A stretch of 64,000 nucleotides of DNA from Flavobacteriaceae bacterium UBA3159. GTDB taxonomy: Bacteria; Bacteroidota; Bacteroidia; Flavobacteriales; Flavobacteriaceae. Both the position numbers and the translations under genes were made by a program. The notes under the pieces are model-generated. The model had not been told where the DNA came from. It saw only the letters and a list, made by a program, of their open reading frames with translations, and ran no database searches. The first letter of the stretch is position 1, and the number at the start of each line of letters is the position of its first letter. Location: contig DEYL01000054.1 in assembly GCA_002364535.1 (NCBI GenBank), positions 7,309 through 71,308 on the forward strand, in the 5' to 3' direction. Below, piece after piece: positions 7,535 to 40,214 of the stretch.

Positions 7535-9351
7535 ATTTTTAAATTTTTATATGTAAAATGTGACCATTGCATCTGCCGGAATGCAAATTTCCCTTCCTCT
7601 AATGGAAGACCCAATTCTTTATTTTCATCCTTCCAGTTAATGATCAAACGATCATCAACATACATACTGATTTGGTTTTCTTTCTTTATTAATTGTAACT
7701 GGTGTGTAGCAGTTGAATTGACTGGTATCCCTCGCGCTCCATATTGCACTGTCTTAAACCCTTTATTTTTTCTTAAATGACTGAAAGGACGATTAGGTTT
7801 TTTAGGGTTGTTCGTGTAATAAGAAATATGATAGTTGTTTAAATCTCCCTTGGTGTATTGACTAAAAACTCCTGTTCTCTTTTCCAGTGCGGGATCCATA
7901 ACATCTTCCCCATTCACTCCCTTGGCGGCAAAAAACACGATGCAGAGGCCGGCTTTGGGATTGAGATTCTGCATTTCCCACTCCGCCATAAAATTGGAGG
8001 GTAACTCCTGAGGGCACCAAAATACGTGATGAGATTTTTGATCAGGAGAGTACATTTCTAACCAATTGTTTCTGATCAGGGCTTTTGCAGCACCCTCCAA
8101 CCTCCAGTCGCTAATATCTGCTTTAGATGAAAAGGTGTTTTCATAAATAAGGTCTTGTTTATTGAACTCAATAGGATTGAATGCAATAGGATTTCTCAAA
8201 AATTCGATGAATTCCGAGGCAGCTAACAAAAATGCGCCGGTACCAAATTCCTGCCAGGAATCTGCCGTGTAAGGTTTTGGATCTTTTCCTACGGGCTGGA
8301 CAAATCCCAATCTTCCTTGTTTATTGACATGCTTGGTCAAAGCTTCCCAAGCACCAATCATCGGTTTTTCAAATAGGTTGCGATCCAATATACCATTGTT
8401 GATACCCCATGCAAAACCATAGCAAAAAAAGGCGCTACCACTGTTCTCTGGAATGTCTATTTCTGCCGTTTGAATGAATTTATCCCCTTTTCTATTGAGG
8501 TAGGCAAATACCCCGGGATCCAATAGGTTAGACCGCCACAATCCATCGGAAGTGAGCTCCTGAAGTTTTAATAGCTTGTGGGCCATGGATGTAAACTGAT
8601 CAACAAGGATTTGGCGTTTGGGATGGTCCTCCGGTATGATTTCCAACATGTGGACCAAACCTGCAAAAACCCAACCATTCCCCCTGCTCCAGAAAATTTT
8701 CTTTCCAGATTTTGTTTTTTTACCAAAATAACGATCATCACGGTAGATTAAATCTTCATTTTTGTCCCATAAATAGTCTGTGGTGATCAGCCAGTGGTCA
8801 ATGGCATAGTTTAAATATTCCTCCTCCCCAGTGATCTCGTACATTTTTACAAAAGTAGGGGGCGCCATAAACAGTGCGTCACACCAACTCCACCATTCGT
8901 GTTTATAGGGGTTGTTGTTATACCTCACATCTGGATTAGGTTTGTTTCTCAACAAATGAGCATCCAAAACCCACTTGGTATTTTTAATTAGTGCTGCATC
9001 CCCGATTTGTTGGTATAGGTCCAGATAAACCTGGGATATGGCAATTTTATCGGCATGATACATATCTGGTGGAGTTTCCCATTGGTGGTCCTCACTAATT
9101 TTAATTAGGAACTCTTGATAGGATTTATTCCCTGTGGTTTTGTAGGCCTTCATCATACCGATGTAGTAGGTAGCGAATTGCCAGTTGGTCAATGTAAATT
9201 TCTCAACATGATCGGTCTGTTGACTTTGCCAACCGATGACTTTATCAATTAATGCGATGACCTGCTGTTCTGACGTATGCTGTGGTTGCGCCACCAGGGG
9301 GTAACTCAATAATAAAAAAAGTATTATATATATCTGTTGTTGTATTTTCAT
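7519..9351 (-). CDS. GH105/GH88-like unsaturated uronyl hydrolase fused to a C-terminal DUF1961 (YesU-like, concanavalin-fold) domain
   Basis: The N-terminal ~390 aa contain WSRGNGWVFAGL, the GH88/GH105 WxRGNGW block. The C-terminal ~200 aa (HHVFWCPQELPSNFMAEWEM...YHISYYTNN...LRKNKGF...GKFAFRQMQWSHFTYKNLKIW) read like DUF1961. Confidence 0.75.
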   Translation of the reverse strand: MKIQQQIYIILFLLLSYPLVAQPQHTSEQQVIALIDKVIGWQSQQTDHVEKFTLTNWQFATYYIGMMKAYKTTGNKSYQEFLIKISEDHQWETPPDMYHADKIAISQVYLDLYQQIGDAALIKNTKWVLDAHLLRNKPNPDVRYNNNPYKHEWWSWCDALFMAPPTFVKMYEITGEEEYLNYAIDHWLITTDYLWDKNEDLIYRDDRYFGKKTKSGKKIFWSRGNGWVFAGLVHMLEIIPEDHPKRQILVDQFTSMAHKLLKLQELTSDGLWRSNLLDPGVFAYLNRKGDKFIQTAEIDIPENSGSAFFCYGFAWGINNGILDRNLFEKPMIGAWEALTKHVNKQGRLGFVQPVGKDPKPYTADSWQEFGTGAFLLAASEFIEFLRNPIAFNPIEFNKQDLIYENTFSSKADISDWRLEGAAKALIRNNWLEMYSPDQKSHHVFWCPQELPSNFMAEWEMQNLNPKAGLCIVFFAAKGVNGEDVMDPALEKRTGVFSQYTKGDLNNYHISYYTNNPKKPNRPFSHLRKNKGFKTVQYGARGIPVNSTATHQLQLIKKENQISMYVDDRLIINWKDENKELGLPLEEGKFAFRQMQWSHFTYKNLKIWNIN

Positions 9352-14819: not shown

Positions 14820-17198
14820 TTAATAATTGTCCGACATACTGGTTGGAAGTGTTTCAATATTGGTTGCCCAATCGTAGTTGGGTTCTTCACCCAAAACAAA
14901 ATCTAAATTACCTCCTTTTATCAAATCTGTATGGTAAAACCATGACTGATCCAAGTTTTTTCCGTTAAGCTGAACACTCTGAATGTATTTATTCTTCAGA
15001 CTATTATTTTCAGTTGAAATGGTAAAACTTTTGCCTGGGTAATAGTCAGGATCCAAGTGGATCGTGATTTCATCAAATATGGGACTTGATATATCATAGG
15101 CAGGTTTGATTTCCGTTCCGCCTTTCATTTCAAATAGTCCCATTTTCATCAAAACAGCTAAGGATCCCATTAGCCCTTGATCCTCGTCTCCGCTGTAACC
15201 TTTTTGAGGACTGTTGTCACTGTAAACGTCTTCAATAACATCTCTAATCCATTTTTGTGTCAACCAAGGTTGTCCCAAATAATTGAAGATATAGCCCGTT
15301 TGCATAGACGGCTGATTTCCGTAGTTTATAAATGCCCTTCTGCGGTGGCTAGAGACAAATGAGTCACTGCGATAATTGTGGGCTACAAATCCATGTTGCT
15401 CTGCGATGAGAAACGATTGATTTAATCTTTTGGCTGCGGTTTTTTTCCCGCCCATTAAAGCAGCAAGCCCTGCCAAGTCATGAGGGACAAACCATGTGGC
15501 CGCAGCAGCCGTAGCCTCAACAAACCCTGAACCTAAAGGATCTTTATAATCCCCTTCGTAAACTAAAGGATCGAATGGTTCAATCCATGAGCCATCCATG
15601 GTTCTTGGACGCATCCAACCCGATGATGGGTCATATATTTTTTTGTAGTTTGTTGATCTCTTTAACAACATTTCATAATCATCAATTTTGTTCAGTGCCT
15701 TAGCCATTTGTGCCAGAGTCCAATCCTGATAGGCGTATTCCATGGTAACACCTGGACCACATTGATGGTAGCCATATTGCCTTTCATACATAGGAAAAGG
15801 AACGTATCCACGGTCAATATAAAACTCTATTCCACCACCTTTGGTGGTATTGTGTTCATATCCGACTTTACTCATCATTCCTCCTGGTAGGGCATTTTTG
15901 AGCAGGCCTTGATAGGCTTTATCAATGTCGTATCCTCTTATGCCTTTCATGTAGGCGCTAACAATGAAAGGCGTTGATGAGGCACCTGTCATAACATAAG
16001 TGTAATTTCCGCCTGAGGGGCCCCTGGGAATCAAGCCACCATCGTTGTACATCATCAGCATAGAATTGACAAATTCCTCTGTTATTCTTGGGTAAACCAA
16101 ATGCCATAACGTATTGAGGGTCCACTGAGCACCCCAAAAAGAATCAGAGTTGTAATGATTGAATTTAGGGTTTCCCTTTGAATCCAATGGAATTTGACCA
16201 ATTCGCTTCTTTTCTCCTGTCATATCGCTGTATTTGCCATTGACATCACTAATGATTCTACGGCCTTGCAGAGCGTGCCACAAATCGGTGTAAAACCGTA
16301 CCTGTTGGTCTTTTGTATTTCCTTTGATTTCAATTCTACTGAGGTAATCGTTCCATTGGTTTTTGGAATCTTCAACAACAGCATCAAAATCCCAATGACT
16401 TAATTCTGTTTGGAGGTTTAGTTCGGCCTGATCAATACTCACATAGGAAATTCCAACTTTCATGAGCAGCTGTTCACCCTCTTCAGTTTTGAACACAGGA
16501 TACACCCCTCCGTTTTCTCCTTCGAATTTCTTTACTTCCCCAATAAGCTCACCTTCTTTAAATGCGTGAAGTGCTTGAAAAGGTTTGTCAAAATGGATTG
16601 AGAAAAACACTTTAGTAGATTTAGGACGTCTGATGGTTCCTTCCATAACCGCATAGCCCTGGATTTTTTTCTTGGAGACCCGCCTAACGTATCCACTTTC
16701 TGTTCCACTGGGTCCCAATTGGGTTGAAAGATCTAGAATTACAACACTTTGATCAGATTTTGGAAAAGTATACCGATGAAAGCCTACTCTGACTGTTGAG
16801 GTGAGCTCAACTTTGACATTATAATCGTCCAATATTACAGAGTGATAACCAGGTTCCACCGTTTCTCTGTCGTGGGAATAAGTTGATCCGTAAACCTTGG
16901 GACCCAAATGTGCTTTGATGGCCCCTGTTGTAGGTAATACTGGAACTCCTGACAATTGCCACGCGTGAATATGACTGAAAAAATTTATAGTTTTTTCATT
17001 ATATCGGTAACCCGAGGCCCATGCTCCGGCTGTCCCCATATCGGGACTGAGGTTGACCATTCCAAAAGGGCGTGTTGCTGAGGTAAAGAAAAACCACCTG
17101 GAATTGGCAGAATCTACTAAGGGATTAACTAGATCAACAGGTCGCTGAGCAAATGTTAATGCACTAAAAAAAATTAAAAAATAGTATGTGTTTTTCAT
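14820..17198 (-). CDS. GH92-family exo-alpha-mannosidase-like glycoside hydrolase
   Basis: Has a signal peptide. RPFGMVNLSPDMG, GYHSVILDDYNVKVELTSTVRVGFHRYTFP, FYTDLWHAL, SFWGAQWTLNTLWHLVYP and MEYAYQDWTLAQMAKAL all match conserved GH92 blocks. Confidence 0.85.
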   Translation of the reverse strand: MKNTYYFLIFFSALTFAQRPVDLVNPLVDSANSRWFFFTSATRPFGMVNLSPDMGTAGAWASGYRYNEKTINFFSHIHAWQLSGVPVLPTTGAIKAHLGPKVYGSTYSHDRETVEPGYHSVILDDYNVKVELTSTVRVGFHRYTFPKSDQSVVILDLSTQLGPSGTESGYVRRVSKKKIQGYAVMEGTIRRPKSTKVFFSIHFDKPFQALHAFKEGELIGEVKKFEGENGGVYPVFKTEEGEQLLMKVGISYVSIDQAELNLQTELSHWDFDAVVEDSKNQWNDYLSRIEIKGNTKDQQVRFYTDLWHALQGRRIISDVNGKYSDMTGEKKRIGQIPLDSKGNPKFNHYNSDSFWGAQWTLNTLWHLVYPRITEEFVNSMLMMYNDGGLIPRGPSGGNYTYVMTGASSTPFIVSAYMKGIRGYDIDKAYQGLLKNALPGGMMSKVGYEHNTTKGGGIEFYIDRGYVPFPMYERQYGYHQCGPGVTMEYAYQDWTLAQMAKALNKIDDYEMLLKRSTNYKKIYDPSSGWMRPRTMDGSWIEPFDPLVYEGDYKDPLGSGFVEATAAAATWFVPHDLAGLAALMGGKKTAAKRLNQSFLIAEQHGFVAHNYRSDSFVSSHRRRAFINYGNQPSMQTGYIFNYLGQPWLTQKWIRDVIEDVYSDNSPQKGYSGDEDQGLMGSLAVLMKMGLFEMKGGTEIKPAYDISSPIFDEITIHLDPDYYPGKSFTISTENNSLKNKYIQSVQLNGKNLDQSWFYHTDLIKGGNLDFVLGEEPNYDWATNIETLPTSMSDNY

Positions 17199-17200
17199 TA

Positions 17201-18418
17201 TTAAATTTTTAGATATTTGTCCGCAAAGGATTTTAGTTTAGTTTCATTCACTTTAAGTCCAAAACCAGGTTTAAAGTGCACAGTGACTTTTCCCTGAGCA
17301 TCTAACTGCGTTGCTTTTTCTTCGATGCAATTTATAAATGCGTCTTGTTCCTGGGGCTTTTCCATAGCTTCTACCCAGGAGGCTTTATTGCCAATGGCAA
17401 TTTGTTGCCAAAAAGTACAGGCAGCACCAATGAGACTTGAGTCGCCGATCATGATTCCTTTTCCAGATTTTTTGATGACTTTGGCCAATTGATTTACCTC
17501 CTCAAAAGTACCCATGCATTTGGGATGAAGGTTGAAGTAATTTCCCATTCTGTCATCGAAATACTCAATACTTTTCGCTGCGGGTCTCATAATATGATCC
17601 GGGACGATGGAAAGTTTCCCTACGTTGGACTGTAAAAAGATAAGTTCTTCTTTTTTAAGATTGGAAGGATCTTCTACCCCATCCATTCCCGCTTCATGCA
17701 AAGCCACCATAAACTGTGACAATTCATTTAGATCTTTGACATGATCATAGCCGCGGTTCGGATCTCCCAAGATAAAAGCATCGGGACCTAAAAATTTTCG
17801 CAAAGCACTCACATTTTTTTTATCCATTTCAAAATCACCAAACATTTTAATTTTGACATAACGGTGCAGGTTTTGATCTTTTGCAATTTGGGCTTGTTTG
17901 ACCACCATCTCTTCTTCTTTTTCTAAAATACAAAAGATAGCGGGCACAGGATCTTGGCCTTCAAGCCCCCAGATTTTGATAGTTGGTTTATTTTCAATCT
18001 TACCCATTAAGTCATAAAGTGTCATGAGTAAACCTTCGGTTACAATGGGTTTCCACTGCCCCTGTAAAAATTGATTTCTGACTTCTTCTATGCCGTCTAT
18101 CAAGTTCATCCCCTTGATTTTTTGAAAAGCCTCAGACCATTTGGACAGGTCAAAATCTGGTTGGTTACTGGAAACTTTTGTCTCACCCCAGCCTGTTTGA
18201 TTAGCTCCTTTGATATTGATCATCACGTGTTGCCTGTTTTTCCAAACACCAAAACTAAAGTAACGTTCCTTTTTTACATTGATTAAAAATAAATTAATCT
18301 CTTCGATCTTTATATTTTTTGCCGAGGGGGTGAATCGCGGGGATAAAAAACTGGGCGCCAGAAGTAAGGGCAATATCCCGCTGGTTTGTTTTATAAATTT
18401 TCTTCTAGTATTAATCAT
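17201..18418 (-). CDS. Enolase-superfamily (MR/MLE-type) enzyme with a twin-arginine export signal
   Basis: The N-terminus MINTRRKFIKQTSGILPLLLAPSF has an RRxFxK Tat motif plus an h-region. The barrel carries YVKIKMFG (KxK), ILGDPNRGY (metal Asp), GVEDPS (metal Glu), SIVPDH (third ligand), NLHPKCMGT (second catalytic Lys) and MIGDSS. Confidence 0.75.
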   Translation of the reverse strand: MINTRRKFIKQTSGILPLLLAPSFLSPRFTPSAKNIKIEEINLFLINVKKERYFSFGVWKNRQHVMINIKGANQTGWGETKVSSNQPDFDLSKWSEAFQKIKGMNLIDGIEEVRNQFLQGQWKPIVTEGLLMTLYDLMGKIENKPTIKIWGLEGQDPVPAIFCILEKEEEMVVKQAQIAKDQNLHRYVKIKMFGDFEMDKKNVSALRKFLGPDAFILGDPNRGYDHVKDLNELSQFMVALHEAGMDGVEDPSNLKKEELIFLQSNVGKLSIVPDHIMRPAAKSIEYFDDRMGNYFNLHPKCMGTFEEVNQLAKVIKKSGKGIMIGDSSLIGAACTFWQQIAIGNKASWVEAMEKPQEQDAFINCIEEKATQLDAQGKVTVHFKPGFGLKVNETKLKSFADKYLKI

Positions 18419-18426: not shown

Positions 18427-19842
18427 TTAAATTTCAGTTCGTTTTGTTTCAGCATTAGCCTTTTCGAGGAATTCCCCCAAGGCCTTGTTTAGTTTGATCA
18501 CCCGTTCCGGCATTTGTTTTGAAAGATCATTCTTTTCTTCTACATCCTCAGATAAATTAAATAATTCTAGTGCGTTTGTTTCCCAATTTTTAACCAACTT
18601 ATAATCCCCCCAGCGAATGGCGGAAATAGGTTTTCTGTTGGCGGCCTGGTGGAAAATTAAATAAGGAGAGTTGCGCTCCACCCGTCCAACTCCATTGTTG
18701 TGGATTATACATTCCAAGTTTCCTCCATCTATAATTTCTGGGAGTGAGTCGTTGTAGCCTGCCAGTCGGGCCACTGTTGGTAAAATATCTAATCCAGTAA
18801 CGGGAACATCAGAATGTGCGTTAGATGAAATTCCAGGCCCACAGACCACAAAAGGTACCCTAAGACCTCCCTCATACATCGATCCTTTGCCCCCTCTTAA
18901 AGGAAAGTTTCGGTCGATTCTTTGCTTAGGTCCAATGGGGATTGAGGTTCTTCCGCCATTATCAGACAAAAAGAAAATATAAGTGTTGTCTACAATTCCA
19001 AGCGATGCTATTTTATCCAACAAAATCCCTATTCCTTCATCCATATCCTCAGTCATTGCTGCAAAGGCTGGTACAAGGTGTTTTTGTCCTTTTTTTAACT
19101 TACTATATTTACTAATGTTTTTTTCGGAATGGGTGATGGCCAAGTGAACTGCGTAGTGAGAGATTTGAAGATAAAAAGGCTTATTATTTTTTGTTTGAGT
19201 TTCGATAAAATCATTTGATCTTTGGGTCAAGGAGAAAATTAATTTTGGATCATTGTAGGCTTTGGGCCAGGCTTCTCCCATGGGAAAAGGAATGTCTTTA
19301 CCCTCTTTTTGAAGGGTTTTCTTTCCCCCTCCAGTATTGTTTGATGTGAGCCCATCGCTGAAATCATAACCCATTTCCTCAGGGGTAAAATTATCGTAGC
19401 GGGCATCCCATTTCCCAAAATGAGCGGTAACGTATGCAGGGTCTACCATTTTTAGAATTTTGGGTATAGTCATCTGTTTTCTAAATGTCTTTGTCCAATT
19501 CTCCCTGTCTTTTTGATATTCGTGCTTTGCAGGAGTCAACCCGGTTAATATGCTTTTTCTGGTAGGTGAGCAAAAGGGCGCGGGTGAGTATCCATTGGTC
19601 ATGCGCATACCATTGTTTGCTAATCGTTCCATATTGGGAGTTTGATAGTAGTCGCTTTTGGAGCGCGGATCATTTGGATCGGCTAAAAAAGAGGTTCCAA
19701 CCCAACTTTGATCATCGGTTAGGATCACAATAAAGTTTGGTTTTCTCTCATTCGCCTTTTGACCATAACAAGATGAAAATACAAAAATGAATGTTACAAA
19801 AATTATATTCACATTATTTGAATATTTTGCAAGGGTTTTCAT
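18427..19842 (-). CDS. S1 sulfatase (Cys-type); first gene of the 13-gene minus-strand array
   Basis: Motifs seen: IVILTDDQSW, SPAPFCSPTRKSILTG, GKWD, FLSDNGG. Confidence 0.9.
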   Translation of the reverse strand: MKTLAKYSNNVNIIFVTFIFVFSSCYGQKANERKPNFIVILTDDQSWVGTSFLADPNDPRSKSDYYQTPNMERLANNGMRMTNGYSPAPFCSPTRKSILTGLTPAKHEYQKDRENWTKTFRKQMTIPKILKMVDPAYVTAHFGKWDARYDNFTPEEMGYDFSDGLTSNNTGGGKKTLQKEGKDIPFPMGEAWPKAYNDPKLIFSLTQRSNDFIETQTKNNKPFYLQISHYAVHLAITHSEKNISKYSKLKKGQKHLVPAFAAMTEDMDEGIGILLDKIASLGIVDNTYIFFLSDNGGRTSIPIGPKQRIDRNFPLRGGKGSMYEGGLRVPFVVCGPGISSNAHSDVPVTGLDILPTVARLAGYNDSLPEIIDGGNLECIIHNNGVGRVERNSPYLIFHQAANRKPISAIRWGDYKLVKNWETNALELFNLSEDVEEKNDLSKQMPERVIKLNKALGEFLEKANAETKRTEI

Positions 19843-21243: not shown

Positions 21244-23124
21244 TTAGTATCCAGGGTTCTGACTTACATCATTTGTTGCTAGATCAATTTCAGATAGTGG
21301 AATAGGTCTTAAATAGTGGTATTCTTCAATATAATTGAGGGCACCTATCCATGGATTGAATGCTTTACTTCTACTAATTAAAGTAGCTGTTCTTTTAAGG
21401 TCATACCATCTTAGTCCCTCTCCCATAAACTCACGTGCTCTTTCATCCATAATCATTTCAATTGTAACAGAACCTGATGCTCGGTAGCTTTTGGCGGCAG
21501 TTGAACTTAAATCATTTGGGTCAGCAGCCATATCGGCATCAGCACCAGATCCACCAACTGCACGATCAACAACTGCATTATAATAATCAGAAGCCGAACC
21601 GATAGATCCATTACTAGCTCCCTTAACAATTGCCTCAGCAGCTATAAGGTATGCCTCTGAAGATCTCATAAGGGGTTGGTCAAACTCTCCAAACCCGTTA
21701 CCATAGTCGATACCTGGCTCCCAAAACTTCCACATCATTGGGTGTTTACTGTTGTTGTGATAATTAGATTCATCTATTTTTCCGAGCTGGTCAACATTAA
21801 TTACGGCGTAATCCATATTTCCTCCTACATCCTTTCCTCTCTCTGCTAGGGTAGTCGCTGGATTATTCCAATCTCTATACTCGACAACTACATCGCCCTT
21901 TTTGATATCAATGGCAGCGACACCATCTGCAGGAACAAAACCAGGATTATCAACGACAGCATAAACCTTTTCAACAAAGTTTAAATGATATCTTGTATCA
22001 GTCTCAGGATCAAAAAGTCTCCAAACACCAGGGACAGTAGTATGAATACCCAATTGTCTGTTGTAGTCAGATGTTCTGCCTGGACTACCAGGACATTCAT
22101 CATGAGATCCTCCAAAAATACTATGTGCATTATTACCCCAATCAGATGAAATTCCTTCCCCACCAGCTGAATAAGAGTCTTCCCCAACACTAGTAAGTGG
22201 ACTATTGGAATATTGAACAGAGAATATTGTTTCAGTATTTTTGTAATTTTGATTACCAGGTTCATGACTTTGATTTGTTACATCTTCATTCTTTTTTGGA
22301 AAAATATCTTTATAATTGTCAACCATAGGGTGGGCAGCTATTACTTTATCAGCATACTCTCTTGCAGATGTGAAATCAGCAGGAGTTCCACCTAAGGCAT
22401 TCTGAAAATTCCAACCTCTAGTTAAATAAACCCTTGCAAGTAGATGTTGAGCTGCTCCTTTGTTGGCTCTACCATAATCAGATGCAGCTGGGGGTAAAGC
22501 TGCTTCAGCTTCAGTCAAATCAGTAATTATTTGAGAGTAAACCTCCGCGGAAGGAACTCTAATTACTTCTTTGCTGGCACCAGTTGTTTCTTCGAGTGGC
22601 ATAGGAATATCACCAAATTGCTGAACTAAAGAAAATAAGCAGTAAGATCTTATAAATTTCGCTTCCGCAACTCTTATAGATAAGGTATTAGCATATGAAC
22701 CGGTATTTTCAACTTTATCTGAACGTGATATAACAGTGTTTGCTCTATTTAAGGCTTTATAATGATAAACCCAAAAGTCTTCAACTTCAGATACACCAGA
22801 GGTGAATTCAGGTCCATATACGTCAATGTTAACATTAGGTTCAGTACCAACATTTCTAAAACCACCACTACGTGAAAAAATATCAGTTCCATTTAGAGTT
22901 AGTGCCCTAAGTTGAGCTATAGGTCTTAAAAGCGGATAAATTGACTTACTCAAATCTTCAAAACCGGAAGGAGTAGAAAAATAATCTCCAGCAGTTTGAT
23001 TTGAAATGCTTTCCTCTTTAAGTATAGATTCAGGCTCGCAACTCATTGCAACCAATAAAGAGAAAGCGATTAAAATTTTATTTAATGTTTTCATTTGTTT
23101 TATAATTTCTTTTAAACTTTTCAT
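21244..23124 (-). CDS. SusD/RagB-family outer-membrane glycan-binding lipoprotein (pair 2)
   Basis: Lies immediately downstream of a SusC-like gene. Has lipobox AMSC and the SusD-type C-terminus ...DVSQNPGY. The start may instead be the Met at 23094 (MKTLNKIL...). Confidence 0.85.
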   Translation of the reverse strand: MKSLKEIIKQMKTLNKILIAFSLLVAMSCEPESILKEESISNQTAGDYFSTPSGFEDLSKSIYPLLRPIAQLRALTLNGTDIFSRSGGFRNVGTEPNVNIDVYGPEFTSGVSEVEDFWVYHYKALNRANTVISRSDKVENTGSYANTLSIRVAEAKFIRSYCLFSLVQQFGDIPMPLEETTGASKEVIRVPSAEVYSQIITDLTEAEAALPPAASDYGRANKGAAQHLLARVYLTRGWNFQNALGGTPADFTSAREYADKVIAAHPMVDNYKDIFPKKNEDVTNQSHEPGNQNYKNTETIFSVQYSNSPLTSVGEDSYSAGGEGISSDWGNNAHSIFGGSHDECPGSPGRTSDYNRQLGIHTTVPGVWRLFDPETDTRYHLNFVEKVYAVVDNPGFVPADGVAAIDIKKGDVVVEYRDWNNPATTLAERGKDVGGNMDYAVINVDQLGKIDESNYHNNSKHPMMWKFWEPGIDYGNGFGEFDQPLMRSSEAYLIAAEAIVKGASNGSIGSASDYYNAVVDRAVGGSGADADMAADPNDLSSTAAKSYRASGSVTIEMIMDERAREFMGEGLRWYDLKRTATLISRSKAFNPWIGALNYIEEYHYLRPIPLSEIDLATNDVSQNPGY

Positions 23125-23142
23125 CGTATCGCTGATTTAGAA

Positions 23143-26100
23143 TTAAAAATTAATGTTAACCCCAAACAATACTGTAAGAGCAGGGAGATCATCATCATTT
23201 CCTCCTGAATTATATTCAGGGTCAAAGGATAGGAAATCAGTGAAAACAAATGGGTTTTGTACTTGACCATAAAGTCTAAATCTTGAAACTCCAAGTTCAC
23301 TCAAAATCTGACTAGGTAAGCTGTATCCCATTGTAACATCTGAAATTCTAACAAAATCTGCTAATTGGTAACTCAATCCAACTCTAGAAGTACCTCCCTT
23401 ACTTTCGTTTTTACTATTTAATCCCGGACCAGTGACCGGATTAAAGTATGTATTACTTGGATTATCAGGAGTCCAATAATCAATGTCTGCAGATCTATTG
23501 TAACGATCACTTGCAATATCACCGTATGTACCATTCAAGAATGCATTTGAATACATTTGACCTTGCCTAGTATACACAAAAAAGGACATATCCCAGTTTT
23601 TATAATTGAACTGGTTTCTCAAACCAGCGGTCCAATCTGGAGTACCCTTACCAACTATCATTCTATCATCAGAATTAATTTTTTTATCACCATTGAGATC
23701 ACGAATTCTAATTTGTCCTGGTTCTTGGCCAAATTCAGCTGCTTCAGCCTCCTGTCCAAGTTGCCAAATGCCCTCAAACTTATAACTATAATAAGCTCTT
23801 ACGGACTCTCCAACAAATCGTTTATTTCCTATGTCCTCGGTCAGACCACCTGCTAGCTTTACAACTTTATCGTCATTAGCGGTAAAAGTTAAGTTAGAAG
23901 ACCATTTGAAATCTCCTTTACTTAAATTAACAGAGTTAAGTGAGACTTCAATACCACTATTTTCAATTTCTCCCACGTTATCCAGTACATTATTAAATCC
24001 TGTGGAATTTGGAACTTTATCATCTAAAATTAAATCTTCAGTATTTCTTTTGTAATATTCAACTGTTCCACTTAGTTTAATGATACTTAAAGAAAAGTCT
24101 AAACCAAAATTAATCTCTTTACTCCTCTCCCAAACAACTCCTTGATTTGCAAGACTGTTTATTGTGTAACCCAACGCAGGATTTCCACCAAAATCGTAGA
24201 AGGTCTGAAAAATATTTGATTGAGTGGCATATGGACTAATACTTGCATTATTTCCAACTTCTCCATAACTAGCTCTTAGTTTTAAGTTATCAAAAACTCC
24301 AAGTTCTTGAACAAATGATTCATCAGACATTCTCCAGCCAATCGCGGCTGATGGGAAAAAAGCCCATTTGTTTCCATCAGCTAATTGAGATGCTCCATCA
24401 CGTCGGCCAGTAATAGTTATTAAATATTTACCATCAAAACCATAATTAACTCTCCCCATGTAAGAAACAATTGAATAATCAGTTAGGTTTGAACCATAAC
24501 TAGTAACTGTTGCTCCAGTTCCAAGACTATGCCATAGTGAACTATAAGGAAGATCCTCTACACCAATATTCATTGATTCATTATACTCTTCAAATACACT
24601 GAATAGAGCTGTTGCGTCTATAGAATGTTTTCCAAATTGCTTTGTGTAGCTAAGGGTGTTATCAACAGTATAATTGGAAGCTTTGTTTTGAATTGTTGAC
24701 CCTATTGGACTTCTTGATCCTTTACGTGATTTAGTGTAGGTTCCTCTAAATTCTCCTTCTCTCTGATTATTTGTGTATGCTGAGTATGAAGTTTTTAATT
24801 TTAAATCTGGAAATAATTCATATTCGAGATACACATTAGCAATCATTGAGTTAGACTTTCTTTGTCTTTGAAAGTTATCAGGATCAATTTCAATCAATGG
24901 ATTAATTACCTGAGAGTCGTTAATACCCATATAGAAAGCTAAATCACCTACAGGGCCAAAATTAGTGTCACGTTTATTTGGTTCAACGATATTATCAAAA
25001 TAAGGAGTACCGGTTGGTCTTGCTCTCATTGCAGACCTTACCGCTTCTGTGGATCCCCAATTTCTTTCATTTTCGGTAACATAAGCAGTAAATCCAACTT
25101 TAAATTTATCTGATACCTTACTTTCAATACCTGCGTTCAAACTTAACCGGCCATAATCAGCATTGCTAACAAGTCCCTCCTCTAATTGTTTACCAGCTGA
25201 AAAATTATAAGTTGTTGAATCAGATCCACCTGAAACTGAAATAGTATGATTTTGTTGAATAGCATCACGTGTTACCAAATCTAAAAAATCAGTGGTGATC
25301 CCATTATTTATATTGTACATTTCTTGAGCGGTAAAACCTCTACCGAACCTATCCTCATTTTTATATAATTCATAGAATTGCTTTGAACTCAATAGATCTG
25401 GAATGTGAGCCTTTGTTTTAACTCCATAATAACCATTGTAAGACACACTAGGTTTTCCTGATGCACCTTTTTTAGTAGTTACGATAATAACCCCATTTGC
25501 TCCACGAGCACCGTAAACAGCAGTAGAGGAAGCATCTTTAAGAACATCAATAGTCTGAATATCTCCTGGATTAATATCATTGATATTAGCTCCCATAATA
25601 CCGTCAACGACTACTAAAGGTCTTGTTTTTTCGTCATCAAAATTATTTAGACCTCTAATATTAATGTCGAAATCGTTCCCAGGTCTGCTTTTTGTCTTGG
25701 TAACCACCACACCAGCAACTTGTCCCTGGAGGGACGCAGCAGCTTGAATGGGGTTAGCTCTCTGAATAACTTCAGTTTTAATCTGGGCAATTGCTCCAGT
25801 TAAATCTCTTTTTTTAATAGATCCATAGCCTGTTAAAACAACCTCCTCTAGCTCGTCAGAGCCCATTTCCAAAGAAATATTAAATGATTCTGCTTTTGAC
25901 ACTTCAATTTCCTTATCTAAAAATCCAACAAATGAAAATGTTAGAAAGTCAGATTCTGACGCTTCAATTGAATAATTTCCATCAAAATCTGTTGAAGTGC
26001 CTGATTCAGTTCCTTTGACTAATACATTAACTCCTGGCAAAGGAACTCCTGATTCGTCGGTGACGATTCCAGATACAGTCCTCTGAGCATACACAAAATT

Positions 26101-26154
26101 TGTTATTATTAATGCAAATACAAGGGGAACAATTTTGTAGTTAAATTGTTTCAT
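23143..26154 (-). CDS. SusC-like TonB-dependent transporter (pair 2)
   Basis: Carboxypeptidase-regulatory-like N-domain (VSGIVTDESGVPLPGVNVLVKGT...TDFDGNYSI), plug region (VVLTGYGSIKKRDLTGA) and terminal ...GVNINF. No STN signalling domain is visible. I prefer the start at 26154 (MKQFNYKIVPLVFA...) over the ORF-track start at 26190. Confidence 0.9.
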   Translation of the reverse strand: MKQFNYKIVPLVFALIITNFVYAQRTVSGIVTDESGVPLPGVNVLVKGTESGTSTDFDGNYSIEASESDFLTFSFVGFLDKEIEVSKAESFNISLEMGSDELEEVVLTGYGSIKKRDLTGAIAQIKTEVIQRANPIQAAASLQGQVAGVVVTKTKSRPGNDFDINIRGLNNFDDEKTRPLVVVDGIMGANINDINPGDIQTIDVLKDASSTAVYGARGANGVIIVTTKKGASGKPSVSYNGYYGVKTKAHIPDLLSSKQFYELYKNEDRFGRGFTAQEMYNINNGITTDFLDLVTRDAIQQNHTISVSGGSDSTTYNFSAGKQLEEGLVSNADYGRLSLNAGIESKVSDKFKVGFTAYVTENERNWGSTEAVRSAMRARPTGTPYFDNIVEPNKRDTNFGPVGDLAFYMGINDSQVINPLIEIDPDNFQRQRKSNSMIANVYLEYELFPDLKLKTSYSAYTNNQREGEFRGTYTKSRKGSRSPIGSTIQNKASNYTVDNTLSYTKQFGKHSIDATALFSVFEEYNESMNIGVEDLPYSSLWHSLGTGATVTSYGSNLTDYSIVSYMGRVNYGFDGKYLITITGRRDGASQLADGNKWAFFPSAAIGWRMSDESFVQELGVFDNLKLRASYGEVGNNASISPYATQSNIFQTFYDFGGNPALGYTINSLANQGVVWERSKEINFGLDFSLSIIKLSGTVEYYKRNTEDLILDDKVPNSTGFNNVLDNVGEIENSGIEVSLNSVNLSKGDFKWSSNLTFTANDDKVVKLAGGLTEDIGNKRFVGESVRAYYSYKFEGIWQLGQEAEAAEFGQEPGQIRIRDLNGDKKINSDDRMIVGKGTPDWTAGLRNQFNYKNWDMSFFVYTRQGQMYSNAFLNGTYGDIASDRYNRSADIDYWTPDNPSNTYFNPVTGPGLNSKNESKGGTSRVGLSYQLADFVRISDVTMGYSLPSQILSELGVSRFRLYGQVQNPFVFTDFLSFDPEYNSGGNDDDLPALTVLFGVNINF

Positions 26155-26271
26155 ATTAATTATTTTAGATTTATTTAGTTTACTAGTCATTAAATTTAAT
26201 TCCTATTAAAAAAATTATTGTTTTTTTACCGTAAAAATACTGTTTTGAATAGATATAATGTAAAAGAAATT

Positions 26272-26309
26272 AAAAAAAGGGTTTTAAAATTCCTCTAAAC
26301 CCTTTTTTT
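26272..26309 (-). terminator. Rho-independent terminator after the SusD-like gene of pair 1
   Basis: Inverted repeat AAAGGGTTT (26276-26284) / AAACCCTTT (26297-26305), extendable through the flanking A/T runs, with a 12-nt loop. A T-run follows on the minus strand. Confidence 0.6.
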
Positions 26310-26324
26310 AATTTTTTTTTACTA

Positions 26325-27773
26325 CTAATATCCTGGATTTTGGGATAGTATTGAAGGATCATTAACCTTCAAAATTTCAGCTTCAGGAATACCAAAAAGT
26401 CTTTTTACGGAACTGTAAGGGTATGCGGATAGAGCAAAAGCTGATAAAACTACCTCATCTTTTCCTGTTCTTAAAAGGTCCCACCAACGATTACTCTCAC
26501 CAGCAAACTCAAATCTCCTTTCATTTATAATAGCATCTAAAAAAGAAGACTGACTAGAGAGCTCAGTGGAAGTTAAATCAGCTAATCCAGCTCTTGTTCT
26601 TACTTCATTTAATATGCTAAATGCCTCAGCACTAGGATAGCTTTCACTATTTAATATTTCAGCATAAAGCATTTTAACATCTGTATACCTTACTATTGGA
26701 ATATCAACGCCCCATTCTTGGAAAGTAGCTGGTGAATTGTTTTTTGCATATTTAATCCAAAAACGATCATCAGCAACAAATTCACCATCCTCTGTTGATG
26801 TCCATCCATTTTGAATGGTTAGATCTCTTCTCAAATCACCTGTTTCATATGAAAACCACAAATCATCACTTACCATTTGTTTTCGGGTAACTCCATTTAA
26901 TGGAACTTCAGCAGCCATTTTGGGAACTTGCTGAGGTTGACCATTTCCCATACCTGCAACTGTCTTGTCATATTGTATAGAGAAAACAACATGAGGTCCG
27001 TTATCATTTGATTCTTTAAAGAGTTCAGCATAATCTGATTGCATTGAAAATTTACCACTATCTATTATTGATTTGAGATGAGGTTTAGCTGAGGTATAAT
27101 TTCCCTGTTGAATGTATGCTTTTGCAGCCATACCGTTTGCAGAATAAATTGTTGGACGCCCTTTATCATTTTGATTACTACTTAGACCAGCTGATGGATT
27201 AGAAATAGCCTCAAATTCAGAAGTAACAAATGCATAAACTTCAGCAAGTGCTGTTCTTCCAACTGTAAAACTTTCCTCCAACCCTACAGGTTTCAATACC
27301 AAGGGTACGTCTCCGAAATGTCTTACTAACTCATAATACATAAGGGCCCTTAAAAATCTAGCTTGTGCAATATGACTTTGTTTTTGAGCATAGTCCTCGA
27401 TATCTTCAGATTTTTGTATAACTATATTTACACGATTTATGATTGAGTAACACGTGTTCCAAATATCAGTTGATACTTGAGAACCAGCATTTTCATTATA
27501 TTGAGATATGTTTAACTCTAAATTATTTGCATATCCTTGAGTCTGTGACGAATTATCTCCCCTCCATATTGCAGCTCTTATCATCATTTCATCATAGAGT
27601 GAATTCAAAGATGAATAAGCACCAGTTAACGCTTGATCTATTTGAATTGATGATTGATAGAAGTTTCCGGTAGTCAACTGTGAAATCGGAGCTAAATCTA
27701 AATCTTCTTCATCACAACCAATAAATACTGTTGTAATTATTAAGCTGTAAAATAAAATTCTAAATTTTTTCAT
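26325..27773 (-). CDS. SusD/RagB-family outer-membrane glycan-binding lipoprotein (pair 1)
   Basis: Has lipobox FIGC and lies directly downstream of a SusC-like gene. The C-terminus is ...ILSQNPGY. Confidence 0.85.
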   Translation of the reverse strand: MKKFRILFYSLIITTVFIGCDEEDLDLAPISQLTTGNFYQSSIQIDQALTGAYSSLNSLYDEMMIRAAIWRGDNSSQTQGYANNLELNISQYNENAGSQVSTDIWNTCYSIINRVNIVIQKSEDIEDYAQKQSHIAQARFLRALMYYELVRHFGDVPLVLKPVGLEESFTVGRTALAEVYAFVTSEFEAISNPSAGLSSNQNDKGRPTIYSANGMAAKAYIQQGNYTSAKPHLKSIIDSGKFSMQSDYAELFKESNDNGPHVVFSIQYDKTVAGMGNGQPQQVPKMAAEVPLNGVTRKQMVSDDLWFSYETGDLRRDLTIQNGWTSTEDGEFVADDRFWIKYAKNNSPATFQEWGVDIPIVRYTDVKMLYAEILNSESYPSAEAFSILNEVRTRAGLADLTSTELSSQSSFLDAIINERRFEFAGESNRWWDLLRTGKDEVVLSAFALSAYPYSSVKRLFGIPEAEILKVNDPSILSQNPGY

Positions 27774-27784
27774 TTTTATATATT

Positions 27785-40149: not shown

Positions 40150-40191
40150 ATTTTAGTTTTTTTGAATAGGATATCGAATTTATTTTTTTGT

Positions 40192-40199
40192 TACATTTG
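40192..40199 (+). promoter_or_regulatory. Candidate -7 promoter box (TAnnTTTG) for the DUF1080-led operon
   Basis: TACATTTG lies 35 nt upstream of the preferred ATG at 40234. A TTTG at 40161-40164 is the only upstream -33-like element and sits at non-canonical spacing. Confidence 0.35.
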
Positions 40200-40214
40200 C
40201 GTGCACGCACACAA
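40198..40214. promoter_or_regulatory. 12-bp perfect palindrome TGCGTGCACGCA overlapping the shared motif GTGCACGCACACAA; candidate operator in an 84-bp divergent region
   Basis: Read directly. TGCGTGCACGCA (40198-40209) equals its own reverse complement. GTGCACGCACACAA (40201-40214) recurs with one mismatch at 45175-45188. Confidence 0.45.

What the first reader, a model, noticed from the sequence alone, without database searches (positions are those of the whole stretch)
17201..18418. Twin-arginine-exported enolase-superfamily enzyme embedded in the glycan operon
Seen in the sequence: the ORF begins MINTRRKFIKQTSGILPLLLAPSF, an RRxFxK motif plus a hydrophobic region. It then carries the MR/MLE catalytic constellation: KIK, GDPN, VEDP, PDH, HPKCMG.

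Established knowledge: enolase-superfamily enzymes abstract the proton alpha to a carboxylate. This gives racemisation/epimerisation, dehydration or beta-elimination. Characterised members are essentially cytoplasmic. Tat export suits proteins that fold or oligomerise before export.

Inference: C5 of a uronic acid is alpha to its carboxylate. A periplasmic member in a uronate-processing, sulfatase-rich operon, 3 bp from GH92 and 9 bp from a sulfatase, could therefore be a new type of uronate C5-epimerase. It could also be an oligosaccharide lyase or an acid-sugar dehydratase acting before import.
Basis: partly seen in the sequence, partly recalled or inferred. Interest (0 to 1): 0.75.

Follow-up and report, generated by a model that had tools for sequence, protein, structure and literature searches.

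The report
Exported enolase-family enzyme in sulfated-glycan locus
A marine flavobacterium exports to its periplasm an unusual member of the normally cytoplasmic enolase enzyme superfamily; the gene sits between a sulfatase and a mannosidase, so it probably carries out an undescribed step in breaking down acidic sulfated algal sugars.

Summary
The ORF at 17201-18418 (-) encodes 405 aa with a consensus twin-arginine signal (TRRKFIK) followed by a full enolase-superfamily fold (AF2 pLDDT 88; TM 0.74-0.83 to mandelate racemase and MLE-type enzymes).

One detail is wrong. The lysine in "HPKCMG" is not conserved. The invariant residue is H298, which aligns with the beta6 catalytic lysine of the MLE subgroup. 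The signature KxK / D-E-D / His(beta6) / Asp(beta7) matches no described subgroup.

The family is small: 73 representative clusters at E<1e-30 among 1.84 billion proteins. I found no publication on it.

RRxF is kept in 98 of 100 close homologues. Opitutales relatives carry Sec signals. Firmicutes relatives have no signal, and neither do their neighbouring sulfatases and GH88.

Partners across phyla are sulfatases (adjacent, and once fused), alpha-mannosidases (GH92, or GH38/GH125), GH88, heparinase II/III-like proteins and UxaC. A separate subclade is fused to GT2 glycosyltransferases.

Best reading: a Mg2+-dependent enzyme that works at the oligosaccharide stage. It removes the C5 proton of a uronate in a sulfated (glucurono)mannan-type glycan. 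The result is either 4,5-elimination that feeds GH88, or C5 epimerisation. The function is inferred, not shown.

The parts
17201..18418 (-). CDS of the exported enolase-superfamily enzyme ('ENOL', 405 aa)
   Evidence: ORF list; Pfam MR_MLE_C; AF2 model with pLDDT 88; Foldseek hits to MR and MLE structures
18329..18418 (-). Tat signal peptide region (residues 1-30). The twin-arginine motif T4-R5-R6-K7-F8-I9-K10 lies at 18389-18409 and the h-region is G14-L25
   Evidence: Sequence; RRxF in 98 of 100 homologues; low pLDDT for residues 1-30 and first strand at residue 40; the same NRRKFIK motif occurs in the Tat-type GFO oxidoreductase of the locus
17969..18313 (-). N-terminal capping domain (about residues 36-150) with a family-specific conserved lid, N47-x4-R52-x2-S55-x3-W59-x-N61-R62-Q63-H64
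   Evidence: Secondary structure; invariant columns
17339..17968 (-). (beta/alpha)7-beta barrel domain (about residues 151-360)
   Evidence: Strand order; Pfam MR_MLE_C covers residues 172-393
17846..17854 (-). K189-x-K191 at the end of beta2 (acid/base pair)
   Evidence: Aligned to the KxK of 2p88 and 2chr; conserved down to about 30% identity
17597..17764 (-). Metal ligands D219 (17762-17764, beta3), E249 (17672-17674, beta4) and D274 (17597-17599, beta5)
   Evidence: HMM alignments to 2p88 and 2chr; conservation table; coordinates
17525..17527 (-). H298 at the end of beta6. It is invariant and occupies the position of the MLE-subgroup catalytic lysine
   Evidence: Alignments 'fnlhP' vs 'NIKLM' (2p88) and 'SLKLC' (2chr); invariant. 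The neighbouring K300 (17519-17521) is variable
17441..17443 (-). D326 just after beta7. It is conserved and is a possible partner of H298
18427..19842 (-). S1 sulfatase immediately upstream (8-nt spacer). Its best solved relative is a S1_16 kappa-carrageenan sulfatase
   Evidence: orthologue adjacent or next-but-one in about 40 Bacteroidota loci
14820..17198 (-). GH92 alpha-mannosidase immediately downstream (2-nt spacer)
   Evidence: ENOL-GH92 adjacency conserved at 46-100% ENOL identity
13782..14810 (-). GFO/IDH/MocA oxidoreductase without a signal peptide (cytoplasmic)
   Evidence: conserved after GH92
7519..9351 (-). GH88 unsaturated glucuronyl hydrolase fused to DUF1961, with a Sec signal
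   Evidence: DUF1961 and GH88 are also next to the cytoplasmic homologue in Vallitalea
3567..6167 (-). DUF4962 + heparinase II/III C-domain protein (candidate uronate lyase)
2113..3570 (-). S1 sulfatase, 41% identical to the sulfatase that directly flanks ENOL in Cyclobacteriaceae-type loci. For that flanking sulfatase, the best solved relatives are 6hhm and human iduronate-2-sulfatase
21244..30868 (-). Two SusC/SusD pairs heading the same transcriptional direction (the PUL core)
31152..32777 (+). GH39 (the family of beta-xylosidases and alpha-L-iduronidases), divergent from the PUL
   Evidence: conserved in L009, L012 and L016
45219..46601 (+). Tat-signal GFO/IDH/MocA oxidoreductase (MDLNRRKFIKD...). 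It is the only other Tat-type protein in the locus

Best explanation
The gene encodes a divalent-metal (Mg2+-type) enolase-superfamily enzyme of a previously undescribed subgroup. Its signature is beta2 KxK, a beta3/4/5 D-E-D metal triad, a beta6 His in place of the MLE lysine, and a beta7 Asp.

The protein is exported folded through the Tat pathway into the periplasm. There it works beside the PUL's sulfatases and exo-glycosidases on imported oligosaccharides from a sulfated, mannose- and uronate-containing algal glycan (glucuronomannan type).

Proposed mechanism:
1. The metal binds the carboxylate of a desulfated, probably non-reducing-end, uronate residue.
2. K191 or K189 on one face, or H298 (with D326) on the other, removes the C5 proton to give a metal-stabilised enediolate.
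3. The enediolate collapses in one of two ways. (a) It expels the O4 substituent (OH, sulfate or sugar). This gives a 4,5-unsaturated uronate that GH88 then removes, which exposes mannose for GH92. (b) It is reprotonated from the opposite face, which is C5 epimerisation (GlcA <-> IdoA).

I put about 0.55 on the uronate-directed C5 deprotonation. Within that, I put about 0.5 on elimination, 0.35 on epimerisation and the rest on other outcomes.

What is shown: the ORF, the signal motif and its conservation, the fold, the residue conservation, and the gene neighbourhoods and fusions.

What is inferred: export itself, the metal, the substrate and the reaction.
For: Fold and catalytic residues:
- Pfam MR_MLE_C.
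- The 50 best-listed of 662 Foldseek PDB matches at E<=0.001 are all enolase-superfamily; the best matches reach TM 0.74/0.83.
- KxK, D219, E249 and D274 align to 2p88 and 2chr, and H298 aligns to their beta6 Lys.
- These residues are conserved down to about 30% identity across 45+ representatives.

Export:
- TRRKFIK motif plus a modest h-region.
- RRxF in 98 of 100 homologues.
- 27 of 98 have a lipobox-like Cys after the h-region.
- Opitutales relatives use Sec signals instead.
- The only other Tat motif in the locus is on a GFO oxidoreductase, a classic Tat cargo class.

Compartment logic:
- In the Firmicutes loci L063, L065, L066 and L068 the homologue, the sulfatases, GH88 and the heparinase-like enzymes all lack signals and follow ABC importers.
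- In Bacteroidota the corresponding enzymes all carry signals.
- The enzyme therefore belongs to the oligosaccharide-processing stage.

Partners:
- A sulfatase is adjacent in at least 7 independent lineages.
- Fusions exist to a sulfatase (P0128, P0333), to Hepar_II_III_N (P0155) and to GT2 (P0164, P0156).
- The sulfatase fusion is co-operonic with UxaC uronate isomerase.
- GH88/DUF1961 co-occur in the window, in L031, L034, L036, L045 and L065, and GH88 alone in L066.
- The flanking sulfatases in L004 and L005 resemble iduronate-2-sulfatase.
- Alpha-mannosidases of unrelated families flank it in Bacteroidota (GH92) and in Epulopiscium (GH38, GH125).
- Sulfated glucuronomannans are known from diatoms and brown algae, and are cleaved eliminatively (PMC9723552, PMC13063451, PMC9410043).

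Chemistry precedent: among the best sugar-acting sequence relatives are 3,6-anhydro-D-galactonate cycloisomerase (5olc) and galactarolactone cycloisomerase (4ggb/4hpn). From my own knowledge, both remove the proton alpha to the carboxylate and expel a beta ether or ester oxygen.
Against: - No activity, localisation or ligand data exist.
- I could not inspect model coordinates, so the H298-D326 pairing and the pocket size are inferred from strand order only.
- The Epulopiscium operon (2 sulfatases, ENOL, GH125, 2 x GH38) has no GH88, lyase or other uronate-specific gene within 10 kb.
- Several Bacteroidales, Chitinophagaceae and PVC loci also lack GH88.
- The adjacent sulfatases are not one orthologous group, so no single sulfated substrate is implied.
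- L066 already has a lyase, GH88, KduI and KduD, so an extra eliminase looks redundant there.
- Enolase-superfamily active sites are normally closed over small substrates, and no member is known to accept a glycoside.
- The GT2-linked subclade fits an epimerase better than an eliminase.
Confidence: 0.55

Rival explanations
1. It is a periplasmic dehydratase or cycloisomerase for a free acid sugar. The substrate would be an aldonate, aldarate or (sulfo)uronate monomer, released or oxidised in the periplasm. One example is mannonate or gulonate-type acids made by the Tat-exported GFO/IDH/MocA oxidoreductases. Another is a desulfated uronate monomer handed on to UxaC-type catabolism.
For: - Acid-sugar dehydration is the commonest sugar chemistry in the superfamily (my own knowledge).
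- Tat-type GFO oxidoreductases are immediate neighbours in Bacteroidales and Chitinophagaceae loci, and are present in this locus.
- The sulfatase-ENOL fusion sits in an operon without a glycosidase but with UxaC, Ldh_2, 2-hydroxyacid dehydrogenase, a gluconokinase-like kinase and an SDR.
- A His as general acid is typical of the superfamily's dehydratases (my own knowledge).
Against: - In the window the GFO next to GH92 has no signal, so it is in a different compartment.
- The Firmicutes operons contain no dehydrogenase that could make an aldonate.
- In Bacteroidota, monosaccharide-stage enzymes are cytoplasmic, whereas this protein tracks the sulfatases and exo-glycosidases.
- Fusions to GT2 and to a heparinase II/III N-domain point to glycan-bound substrates.
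- Scores against all curated acid-sugar dehydratase models are far below their cut-offs.
Confidence: 0.2
2. It is a racemase or epimerase for a non-uronate carboxylate substituent carried by the glycan. Candidates are an amino acid amide-linked to a uronic acid (formally an N-acyl amino acid), a lactyl (1-carboxyethyl) ether, or a glycerate aglycone.
For: - The best profile hits are N-succinylamino-acid racemase and dipeptide epimerases, and the top NCBIfam hit is an N-acetyl-D-Glu racemase.
- There are two candidate bases on opposite faces.
- A subclade lies in glycan-biosynthesis clusters.
- This reading could explain the Epulopiscium mannosidase operon, which lacks uronate enzymes.
Against: - Sequence similarity within this superfamily does not predict the reaction.
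- Nothing in the loci (amidases, peptidases) points to amino-acid substituents.
- The recurrent partners are uronate-specific (GH88, heparinase II/III, UxaC, PL2, GH28, GH115).
Confidence: 0.08
3. The N-terminus is not a working export signal, so the protein is cytoplasmic. In that case it is an ordinary cytoplasmic enolase-superfamily enzyme of the downstream monosaccharide pathway.
For: - No predictor (SignalP, TatP) or experiment was available.
- Related family members without any signal exist.
- The cleavage site is not obvious: there is no AxA, and the candidates are APS|F and PSA|K.
Against: - RRxF is conserved in 98 of 100 homologues within an otherwise variable 30-residue leader.
- The h-region is present.
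- Lipobox-type Cys variants and Sec-signal variants in Opitutales both argue for export.
- The start codon is unambiguous.
- The disordered leader precedes the fold.
Confidence: 0.04
4. It is a catalytically dead binding or scaffold protein that chaperones or tethers sulfatases, or binds oligosaccharides.
For: It is tightly coupled to sulfatases, including by fusion.
Against: All metal ligands and acid/base residues are under strong conservation across phyla. Only very distant relatives (P0166-P0181) lose them.
Confidence: 0.03

Closest known systems
MLE-subgroup racemases and epimerases of the enolase superfamily (N-succinyl Arg/Lys racemase 2p88; dipeptide epimerases 3jva, 3rit, 3q45; chloromuconate cycloisomerase 2chr)
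   Same: They share the two-domain fold, KxK at beta2, the Asp/Glu/Asp metal triad at beta3-5, and the best profile E-values (3e-12 to 1e-7).
   Different: - The catalytic beta6 Lys is replaced by an invariant His (H298).
- There is an extra conserved Asp after beta7.
- The capping-domain lid motif is unique (NVxKxRxFSxGxWxNRQH).
- Identity is only 15-20%.
- This protein is exported, sits in a glycan locus, and scores far below every curated NCBIfam cut-off.
Mandelate racemase (1mns and related entries)
   Same: It is the top structural match (E 1.9e-20, TM 0.74/0.83). It uses a Lys on one face and a His on the other for 1,1-proton transfer (mechanism from my own knowledge).
   Different: In MR the His sits on beta7 and is paired with an Asp on beta6, and the third metal ligand is Glu. 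Here the His is on beta6, the Asp is on beta7 and the third ligand is Asp. MR is cytoplasmic and its substrate is aromatic.
3,6-anhydro-D-galactonate cycloisomerase DauB (5olc, Zobellia carrageenan regulon, PMC5698469) and galactarolactone cycloisomerase Gci (4ggb/4hpn)
   Same: These are among the best sugar-acting sequence hits. Both belong to marine-glycan or uronate catabolism. From my own knowledge, both abstract the proton alpha to the carboxylate and expel a beta ether or ester oxygen, which is the same regiochemistry as the proposed C5-H/O4 elimination.
   Different: Both act on free monomers in the cytoplasm. The similarity is confined to the N-terminal half up to beta3. Their catalytic residues are those of the MR subgroup.
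Polysaccharide lyases with GH88, and uronate C5-epimerases (heparinase II/III, PL families, D-glucuronyl C5-epimerase, AlgG)
   Same: They share the proposed chemistry (neutralise the uronate carboxylate, remove H5, then eliminate O4 or reprotonate) and the same pathway neighbours (GH88, sulfatases).
   Different: The folds are unrelated: (alpha/alpha) toroid plus beta-sandwich, or beta-helix. No known PL or epimerase family has an enolase fold. Activity here is untested.
Tat-exported GFO/IDH/MocA oxidoreductases and GH109-type enzymes of Bacteroidota PULs
   Same: They use the same export route and carry an almost identical signal motif in the same locus (NRRKFIK). They are periplasmic enzymes of glycan processing that fold before export.
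   Different: They are unrelated in fold and are NAD-dependent. The reason for Tat export here is unclear, because Opitutales relatives use Sec.

Membership tests
Enolase superfamily (MR/MLE-type) | alpha+beta capping domain followed by a (beta/alpha)7-beta barrel | tested here: met
   AF2 model with pLDDT 88 and the expected strand order. Foldseek TM is 0.74/0.83 to 1mns, and there are 662 matches at E<=0.001. Pfam MR_MLE_C scores 46.3 bits against a 29.4 cut-off.
Enolase superfamily (MR/MLE-type) | Three carboxylate metal ligands at the ends of beta3, beta4 and beta5 | tested here: met
   D219, E249 and D274 align to the ligands of 2p88 and 2chr and are conserved. Metal binding itself was not tested.
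MLE subgroup | KxK at beta2 AND a catalytic Lys at the end of beta6 | tested here: not met
   The KxK is present (K189/K191). The beta6 position is an invariant His (H298), and the nearby K300 is not conserved.
MR subgroup | His (beta7)-Asp (beta6) dyad, with Glu as the third metal ligand | tested here: not met
   The third ligand is Asp (D274). The His is on beta6 and the Asp on beta7, which is the reverse arrangement.
Curated isofunctional families (NCBIfam: DgcA racemase, muconate cycloisomerase, OSBS, cis-3-hydroxy-L-proline dehydratase, galactonate dehydratase) | Score at or above the curated equivalog cut-off | tested here: not met
   The best scores are 34 bits against a cut-off of 400, 33 against 335 and 23 against 131.
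Tat (twin-arginine) substrates | (S/T)-R-R-x-F-L-K motif, a weakly hydrophobic h-region and an N-terminal position | tested here: met
   T4-R5-R6-K7-F8-I9-K10. The h-region peaks at 2.19 on the Kyte-Doolittle scale (11-residue window). RRxF occurs in 98 of 100 homologues.
Tat (twin-arginine) substrates | TatABC-dependent export and signal cleavage | not testable with these tools
   No predictor or experiment was available. Indirect support comes from the Sec and lipobox variants in relatives.
Polysaccharide utilisation locus component | Co-directional with SusC/SusD and CAZymes or sulfatases, and the neighbourhood is conserved | tested here: met
CAZy polysaccharide lyases / uronate C5-epimerases | Sequence or fold membership in a known PL or epimerase family | tested here: not met
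   Only enolase-superfamily matches were found.
CAZy polysaccharide lyases / uronate C5-epimerases | Eliminative cleavage (A235) or C5 H/D exchange on uronate-containing glycans | not testable with these tools
   This needs enzymology.

The most novel reading that the evidence does not exclude
This clade is the founding member of a new class of glycan-active enzyme built on the enolase fold. It would be an exo-acting 'uronate 4,5-eliminase'. It would dehydrate (or remove sulfate or a sugar from) a saturated terminal uronate on an oligosaccharide to give a 4,5-unsaturated uronate for GH88. Bacteria could then strip glucuronate from sulfated glucuronomannans and GAG-like glycans without a glucuronidase. 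Its GT2-fused sister clade would be a new family of polymer-level uronate C5-epimerases.
Probability: 0.28. Interest if true: 0.9.

Novelty: new variant of a known kind. Interest (0 to 1): 0.72.

Why it matters
To my knowledge, every characterised enolase-superfamily enzyme works in the cytoplasm on small free acids. This clade is conserved, exported and embedded in PULs, and it has a different catalytic residue. That extends the superfamily into extracytoplasmic glycan processing.

If the function is confirmed, it would add a new enzyme class (lyase, dehydratase or epimerase) to the CAZyme toolbox. It would also fill an unassigned step in the turnover of sulfated mannose- and uronate-containing algal glycans, which matter for the marine carbon cycle.

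Relatives without signals in gut Firmicutes sit in sulfatase, heparinase II/III and GH88 operons. The same chemistry may therefore operate on host or dietary sulfated glycans.

The family is small and sharply defined. It occurs in at least one cultured strain (Arenibacter catalasegens P308H10), so it can be tested directly.

Tried and rejected
1. K300 of 'HPKCMG' as the catalytic lysine. Rejected: the position is variable (N, D, H, G, S), whereas H298 is invariant and aligns with the MLE lysine.
2. A single orthologous 'partner sulfatase'. Rejected: the flanking sulfatases fall into at least three groups. These are S1_16-like, 6hhm/iduronate-2-sulfatase-like, and ARSB/S1_19-like in the fusion.
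3. The enzyme as a KduI substitute acting on the GH88 product. Rejected: L066 has KduI and KduD as well, and the product has no proton alpha to the carboxylate.
4. A periplasmic aldonate route using the GFO next to GH92. Weakened: that GFO has no signal.
5. A scan of genome contigs with the broad alignment A2 failed because no conserved stretch was found. A1 was used instead, so distant cytoplasmic relatives are under-sampled in that set.
6. Literature searches for enolase superfamily combined with Tat/periplasm, PUL/sulfatase, C5-epimerase or GH88 found nothing on this family.
7. The enzyme table of the Polaribacter sulfated-mannan PUL lists no such protein, and only CAZymes and sulfatases were tested there.
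8. The 671-aa neighbour in Vallitalea, and the 483-aa window protein that was scanned with Pfam only, gave no Pfam or PDB hit. Whether L065 truly lacks a lyase is therefore open.
9. Active-site geometry could not be inspected, because the structure tool returns no coordinates.
Full report
**1. The observation**

The ORF at 17201..18418 (-) is real. It is 405 aa, starts at ATG, and begins MINTRRKFIKQTSGILPLLLAPSFLSPRF. All quoted motifs are present: K189-I-K191, G-D219-P-N221, V-E249-D-P, P-D274-H and H298-P-K300-C-M-G. Eight nucleotides separate it from the upstream sulfatase, and two from the GH92 that follows.

The start is the first start codon after an in-frame stop. The only alternative within 50 codons is a TTG at codon 16.

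**2. Superfamily membership**

- Pfam matches only MR_MLE_C (5e-12, above the gathering score).
- NCBIfam hits to racemases, cycloisomerases, OSBS and dehydratases all lie far below their cut-offs.
- PDB sequence hits are weak (best is 5olc at 4e-7). A family profile reaches 3e-12 for the N-succinyl Arg/Lys racemase 2p88.
- An AF2 model built on 21 homologues is confident (pLDDT 88, pTM 0.84). Residues 1-30 are disordered. The rest has the strand order of a capping domain plus a (beta/alpha)7-beta barrel.
- Foldseek against the PDB returns only enolase-superfamily enzymes among the 50 best-listed of 662 matches at E<=0.001. Mandelate racemase is first (TM 0.74/0.83), at 13-20% identity.

**3. 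Catalytic residues**

The profile alignments place K189/K191 on the beta2 KxK. D219, E249 and D274 fall on the three metal ligands. H298 falls on the beta6 catalytic lysine of MLE-subgroup enzymes: 'FNLHP' aligns with 'NIKLM' in 2p88 and with 'SLKLC' in 2chr.

In 21 homologues at 44-89% identity, and in about 45 representatives down to about 30% identity, the following are essentially invariant: K189, K191, D219, N221, E249, D250, D274, R278, N296, H298, P299, D326, E350, E353 and K354. K300 varies.

The combination of an Asp as third ligand (MLE-like), a His on beta6 and an Asp on beta7 (the reverse of MR's Asp-beta6/His-beta7 dyad) fits no described subgroup that I know of. The capping domain carries a family-specific lid: N47, R52, S55, W59, N61, R62, Q63 and H64. 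The conserved Arg and Trp residues are the kind that bind anionic sugars. That last point is an inference.

**4. Export**

T4-R5-R6-K7-F8-I9-K10 matches the Tat consensus. A weakly hydrophobic h-region follows it. RRxF occurs in 98 of 100 full-length close homologues, although the rest of the leader is variable. In 27 of 98, a Cys follows the h-region, as in Tat-lipoproteins.

More distant relatives in Opitutales have classical Sec signals. Neolewinella and Pirellulales relatives have Tat signals.

Within the locus, the only other Tat-type leader belongs to a GFO/IDH/MocA oxidoreductase (MDLNRRKFIKD). Every other enzyme has a Sec or lipoprotein signal, apart from the signal-less GFO342; the leader of the 3-keto-disaccharide hydrolase at 40162-41628 is ambiguous because its start codon is doubtful. 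Export was not tested, but it is supported by three independent kinds of signal in the family.

**5. Size and spread of the family**

A profile search of 1.84 billion representative proteins finds only 73 clusters at E<1e-30, 185 at 1e-10 and 898 at 1e-3. This is a small, sharply separated branch of a very large superfamily.

A pattern scan of 185,579 species genomes found it in 54 loci. The taxa are marine Flavobacteriaceae MAGs, Cyclobacteriaceae, Saprospiraceae, Chitinophagaceae, Bacteroidales, Arenibacter catalasegens P308H10 (a cultured strain), Opitutales, Planctomycetota, Lentisphaeria and a Christensenellaceae.

Source annotations are generic, for example 'L-alanine-DL-glutamate epimerase-like', 'o-succinylbenzoate synthase' and 'hypothetical'. 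Six literature searches found nothing on it.

**6. Context in the window**

The window holds a ~52-kb locus that contains:
- two SusC/D pairs and 13 S1 sulfatases;
- GH92, GH88 fused to DUF1961, and a DUF4962/heparinase II/III-like protein;
- GH39, GH78, SASA and GDSL esterases;
- two 3-keto-disaccharide-hydrolase-like proteins, a Tat-GFO and DUF6807;
- PhoD and a purple acid phosphatase.

The identical protein lies on at least 21 marine metagenome contigs, including Tara samples, with the same neighbours.

**7. Conserved neighbours**

I labelled ORFs in 60 loci by BLAST against annotated references.
- About 40 Bacteroidota loci, at 46-100% identity, keep the order sulfatase-ENOL-GH92(-GFO342-sulfatases-GH88).
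- Soil Bacteroidales have 3-keto-disaccharide hydrolase, Tat-GFO, ENOL, sulfatase.
- Chitinophagaceae have sulfatase, ENOL, Tat-GFOs.
- PVC relatives lie beside GH78, GH29 and GH2.

The flanking sulfatases are not one orthologous group. The window's neighbour is S1_16-like (9fo1). Those in L004 and L005 are closest to 6hhm and human iduronate-2-sulfatase.

**8. Relatives without a signal**

Firmicutes homologues at about 33-37% identity, with all catalytic residues kept, sit in ABC-importer operons:
- Lachnospiraceae L063: a double sulfatase then ENOL, flanked by heparinase II/III proteins.
- Vallitalea L065: two sulfatases, ENOL, a 671-aa unknown, two sulfatases, DUF1961, GH88.
- L066: GH123, ENOL, sulfatase, heparinase II/III, GH88, an unknown, KduI, KduD.
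- Epulopiscium L068: two sulfatases, ENOL, GH125, GH38, GH38.

In the three of these loci whose N-termini were read (L063, L065, L066), the sulfatases, the heparinase II/III and GH88 enzymes of the ENOL operons, and ENOL all lack signals. The enzyme therefore always shares the compartment of the sulfatases and exo-glycosidases. That is the periplasm in diderm SusC/D users and the cytoplasm in ABC importers. This places it at the oligosaccharide stage and explains why Bacteroidota must export it.

**9. Fusions and a biosynthetic clade**

Pfam confirms four kinds of fusion:
- sulfatase+ENOL (P0128, P0333, with a Sec signal);
- ENOL+Hepar_II_III_N (P0155);
- GT2+ENOL (P0164);
- methyltransferase+2xGT2+ENOL (P0156).

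The P0333 fusion lies in an operon with UxaC (uronate isomerase), Ldh_2, a 2-hydroxyacid dehydrogenase, a gluconokinase-like kinase, an SDR and Nramp.

A subclade at about 30% identity has Q64 and the motifs HPH and GDNS. It sits among GT2s and Wzm/Wzt ABC exporters.

**10. Interpretation**

The superfamily's common step is metal-assisted removal of the proton alpha to a carboxylate. In the glycans implied by these neighbours, the obvious carboxylate is a uronate, whose C5-H is the alpha proton. The neighbours in question are:
- GH88, heparinase II/III-like proteins, UxaC, PL2, GH28 and GH115;
- iduronate-2-sulfatase-like sulfatases;
- alpha-mannosidases of three unrelated families.

Sulfated glucuronomannans are known from diatoms (PMC9723552, PMC13063451). 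Sulfated fucoglucuronomannan is known from brown algae, where it is cleaved eliminatively (PMC9410043). These combine mannose, glucuronate and sulfate, which matches the gene set.

After deprotonation, two outcomes are plausible.
- (a) Elimination of the O4 substituent gives a 4,5-unsaturated uronate for GH88. This is favoured by the GH88/DUF1961 linkage across phyla and by the absence of GH2/GH79-type glucuronidases in the window. It is also favoured by the cycloisomerase relatives 5olc and 4ggb and by the superfamily's bias toward dehydration.
- (b) C5 epimerisation. This is favoured by the two-base architecture, by the racemase and epimerase relatives, by the GT2-linked clade, by GH39 and iduronate-sulfatase-like neighbours, and by the UxaC operon.

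I give about 0.55 to uronate-directed chemistry overall, with a slight preference for elimination in this catabolic clade.

**11. What does not fit**

- The Epulopiscium operon has no uronate-specific gene within 10 kb.
- Several loci lack GH88.
- L066 already has a lyase with GH88, KduI and KduD.
- No enolase-superfamily enzyme is known to accept a glycoside.
- I could not inspect coordinates to judge the pocket size or the H298-D326 geometry.

The main rival is a periplasmic free acid-sugar dehydratase (0.2). It is supported by the recurrent Tat-GFO neighbours and by the UxaC operon. It is weakened by the compartment mismatch with GFO342 in the window, by the lack of dehydrogenases in the Firmicutes operons, and by the glycan-enzyme fusions.

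**12. Verdict**

The protein is a new variant (a distinct subgroup) of a known superfamily. Its localisation is unprecedented and its functional coupling to sulfated-glycan catabolism is strong and seen across phyla. The reaction remains to be determined.

Noticed in passing
window 40162-41628 (+), 45219-46601 (+), 46611-48233 (+): A periplasmic oxidoreductase module lies inside the same sulfatase PUL. It consists of a 3-keto-disaccharide-hydrolase-like protein, a Tat-signal GFO/IDH/MocA oxidoreductase, and a DUF6807 + 3-keto-disaccharide-hydrolase fusion. The same module lies divergent from sulfatase-ENOL-GH92 in L013, L024, L026, L027, L030 and L058. This suggests an oxidative glycoside-cleavage route that runs in parallel with hydrolysis.
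   Followed up: partly
window 37128-38579 (-): A 483-aa secreted protein between two sulfatases has no Pfam hit even at E<=1. It is an uncharacterised PUL component.
   Followed up: partly
L065 11160-13175 (+): A 671-aa protein lies directly after the cytoplasmic ENOL homologue in a Vallitalea locus with sulfatases, DUF1961 and GH88. It has no Pfam or PDB match. It is a candidate new lyase or glycosidase; alternatively, the locus truly lacks a lyase.
   Followed up: partly
P0128/P0333, P0155, P0164, P0156 (proteins from elsewhere): The family occurs in domain fusions: sulfatase+ENOL, ENOL+heparinase II/III N-domain, GT2+ENOL, and methyltransferase+2xGT2+ENOL. The sulfatase fusion P0333 lies in an operon with UxaC, Ldh_2, a 2-hydroxyacid dehydrogenase, a gluconokinase-like kinase, an SDR and Nramp (L067).
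   Followed up: yes
L068/L069 7221-18576 (Epulopiscium sp.): This ABC-importer operon has two sulfatases, ENOL, GH125 and two GH38 genes. It is a Gram-positive counterpart of sulfatase-ENOL-GH92 that uses unrelated alpha-mannosidase families and has no uronate-specific enzyme nearby. The GH88-coupled model does not explain it.
   Followed up: partly
window 43171-45090 (+): An S1 sulfatase carries a C-terminal HEAT-repeat extension (639 aa).
   Followed up: no
window 635-2116 (-) and 48322-49644 (+): A PhoD-like phosphatase and a purple acid phosphatase lie towards the two ends of the glycan locus (PhoD is its first gene; SASA and GH78 follow the purple acid phosphatase). PhoD is also kept near ENOL in L036 and L042. 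The substrate may carry phosphate esters, or the locus may be linked to phosphate scavenging.
   Followed up: no
homologues P0037-P0112 and L042 9989-11209: About a quarter of the Tat-bearing homologues, including the one in Arenibacter catalasegens, have a lipobox-like Cys after the h-region (Tat-lipoprotein type). The window protein has none, so it is probably soluble.
   Followed up: partly
window 6986-7474 (+): A 162-aa GTG ORF lies antisense inside the sulfatase gene 6149-7534. It is most likely spurious.
   Followed up: no
window 40162-41628 (+) and 10772-12436 (-): These two ORFs were called from TTG starts. For 40162-41628, the hydrophobic signal begins only after an internal Met (MKIKFNFF...), so the true start is probably downstream.
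   Followed up: no
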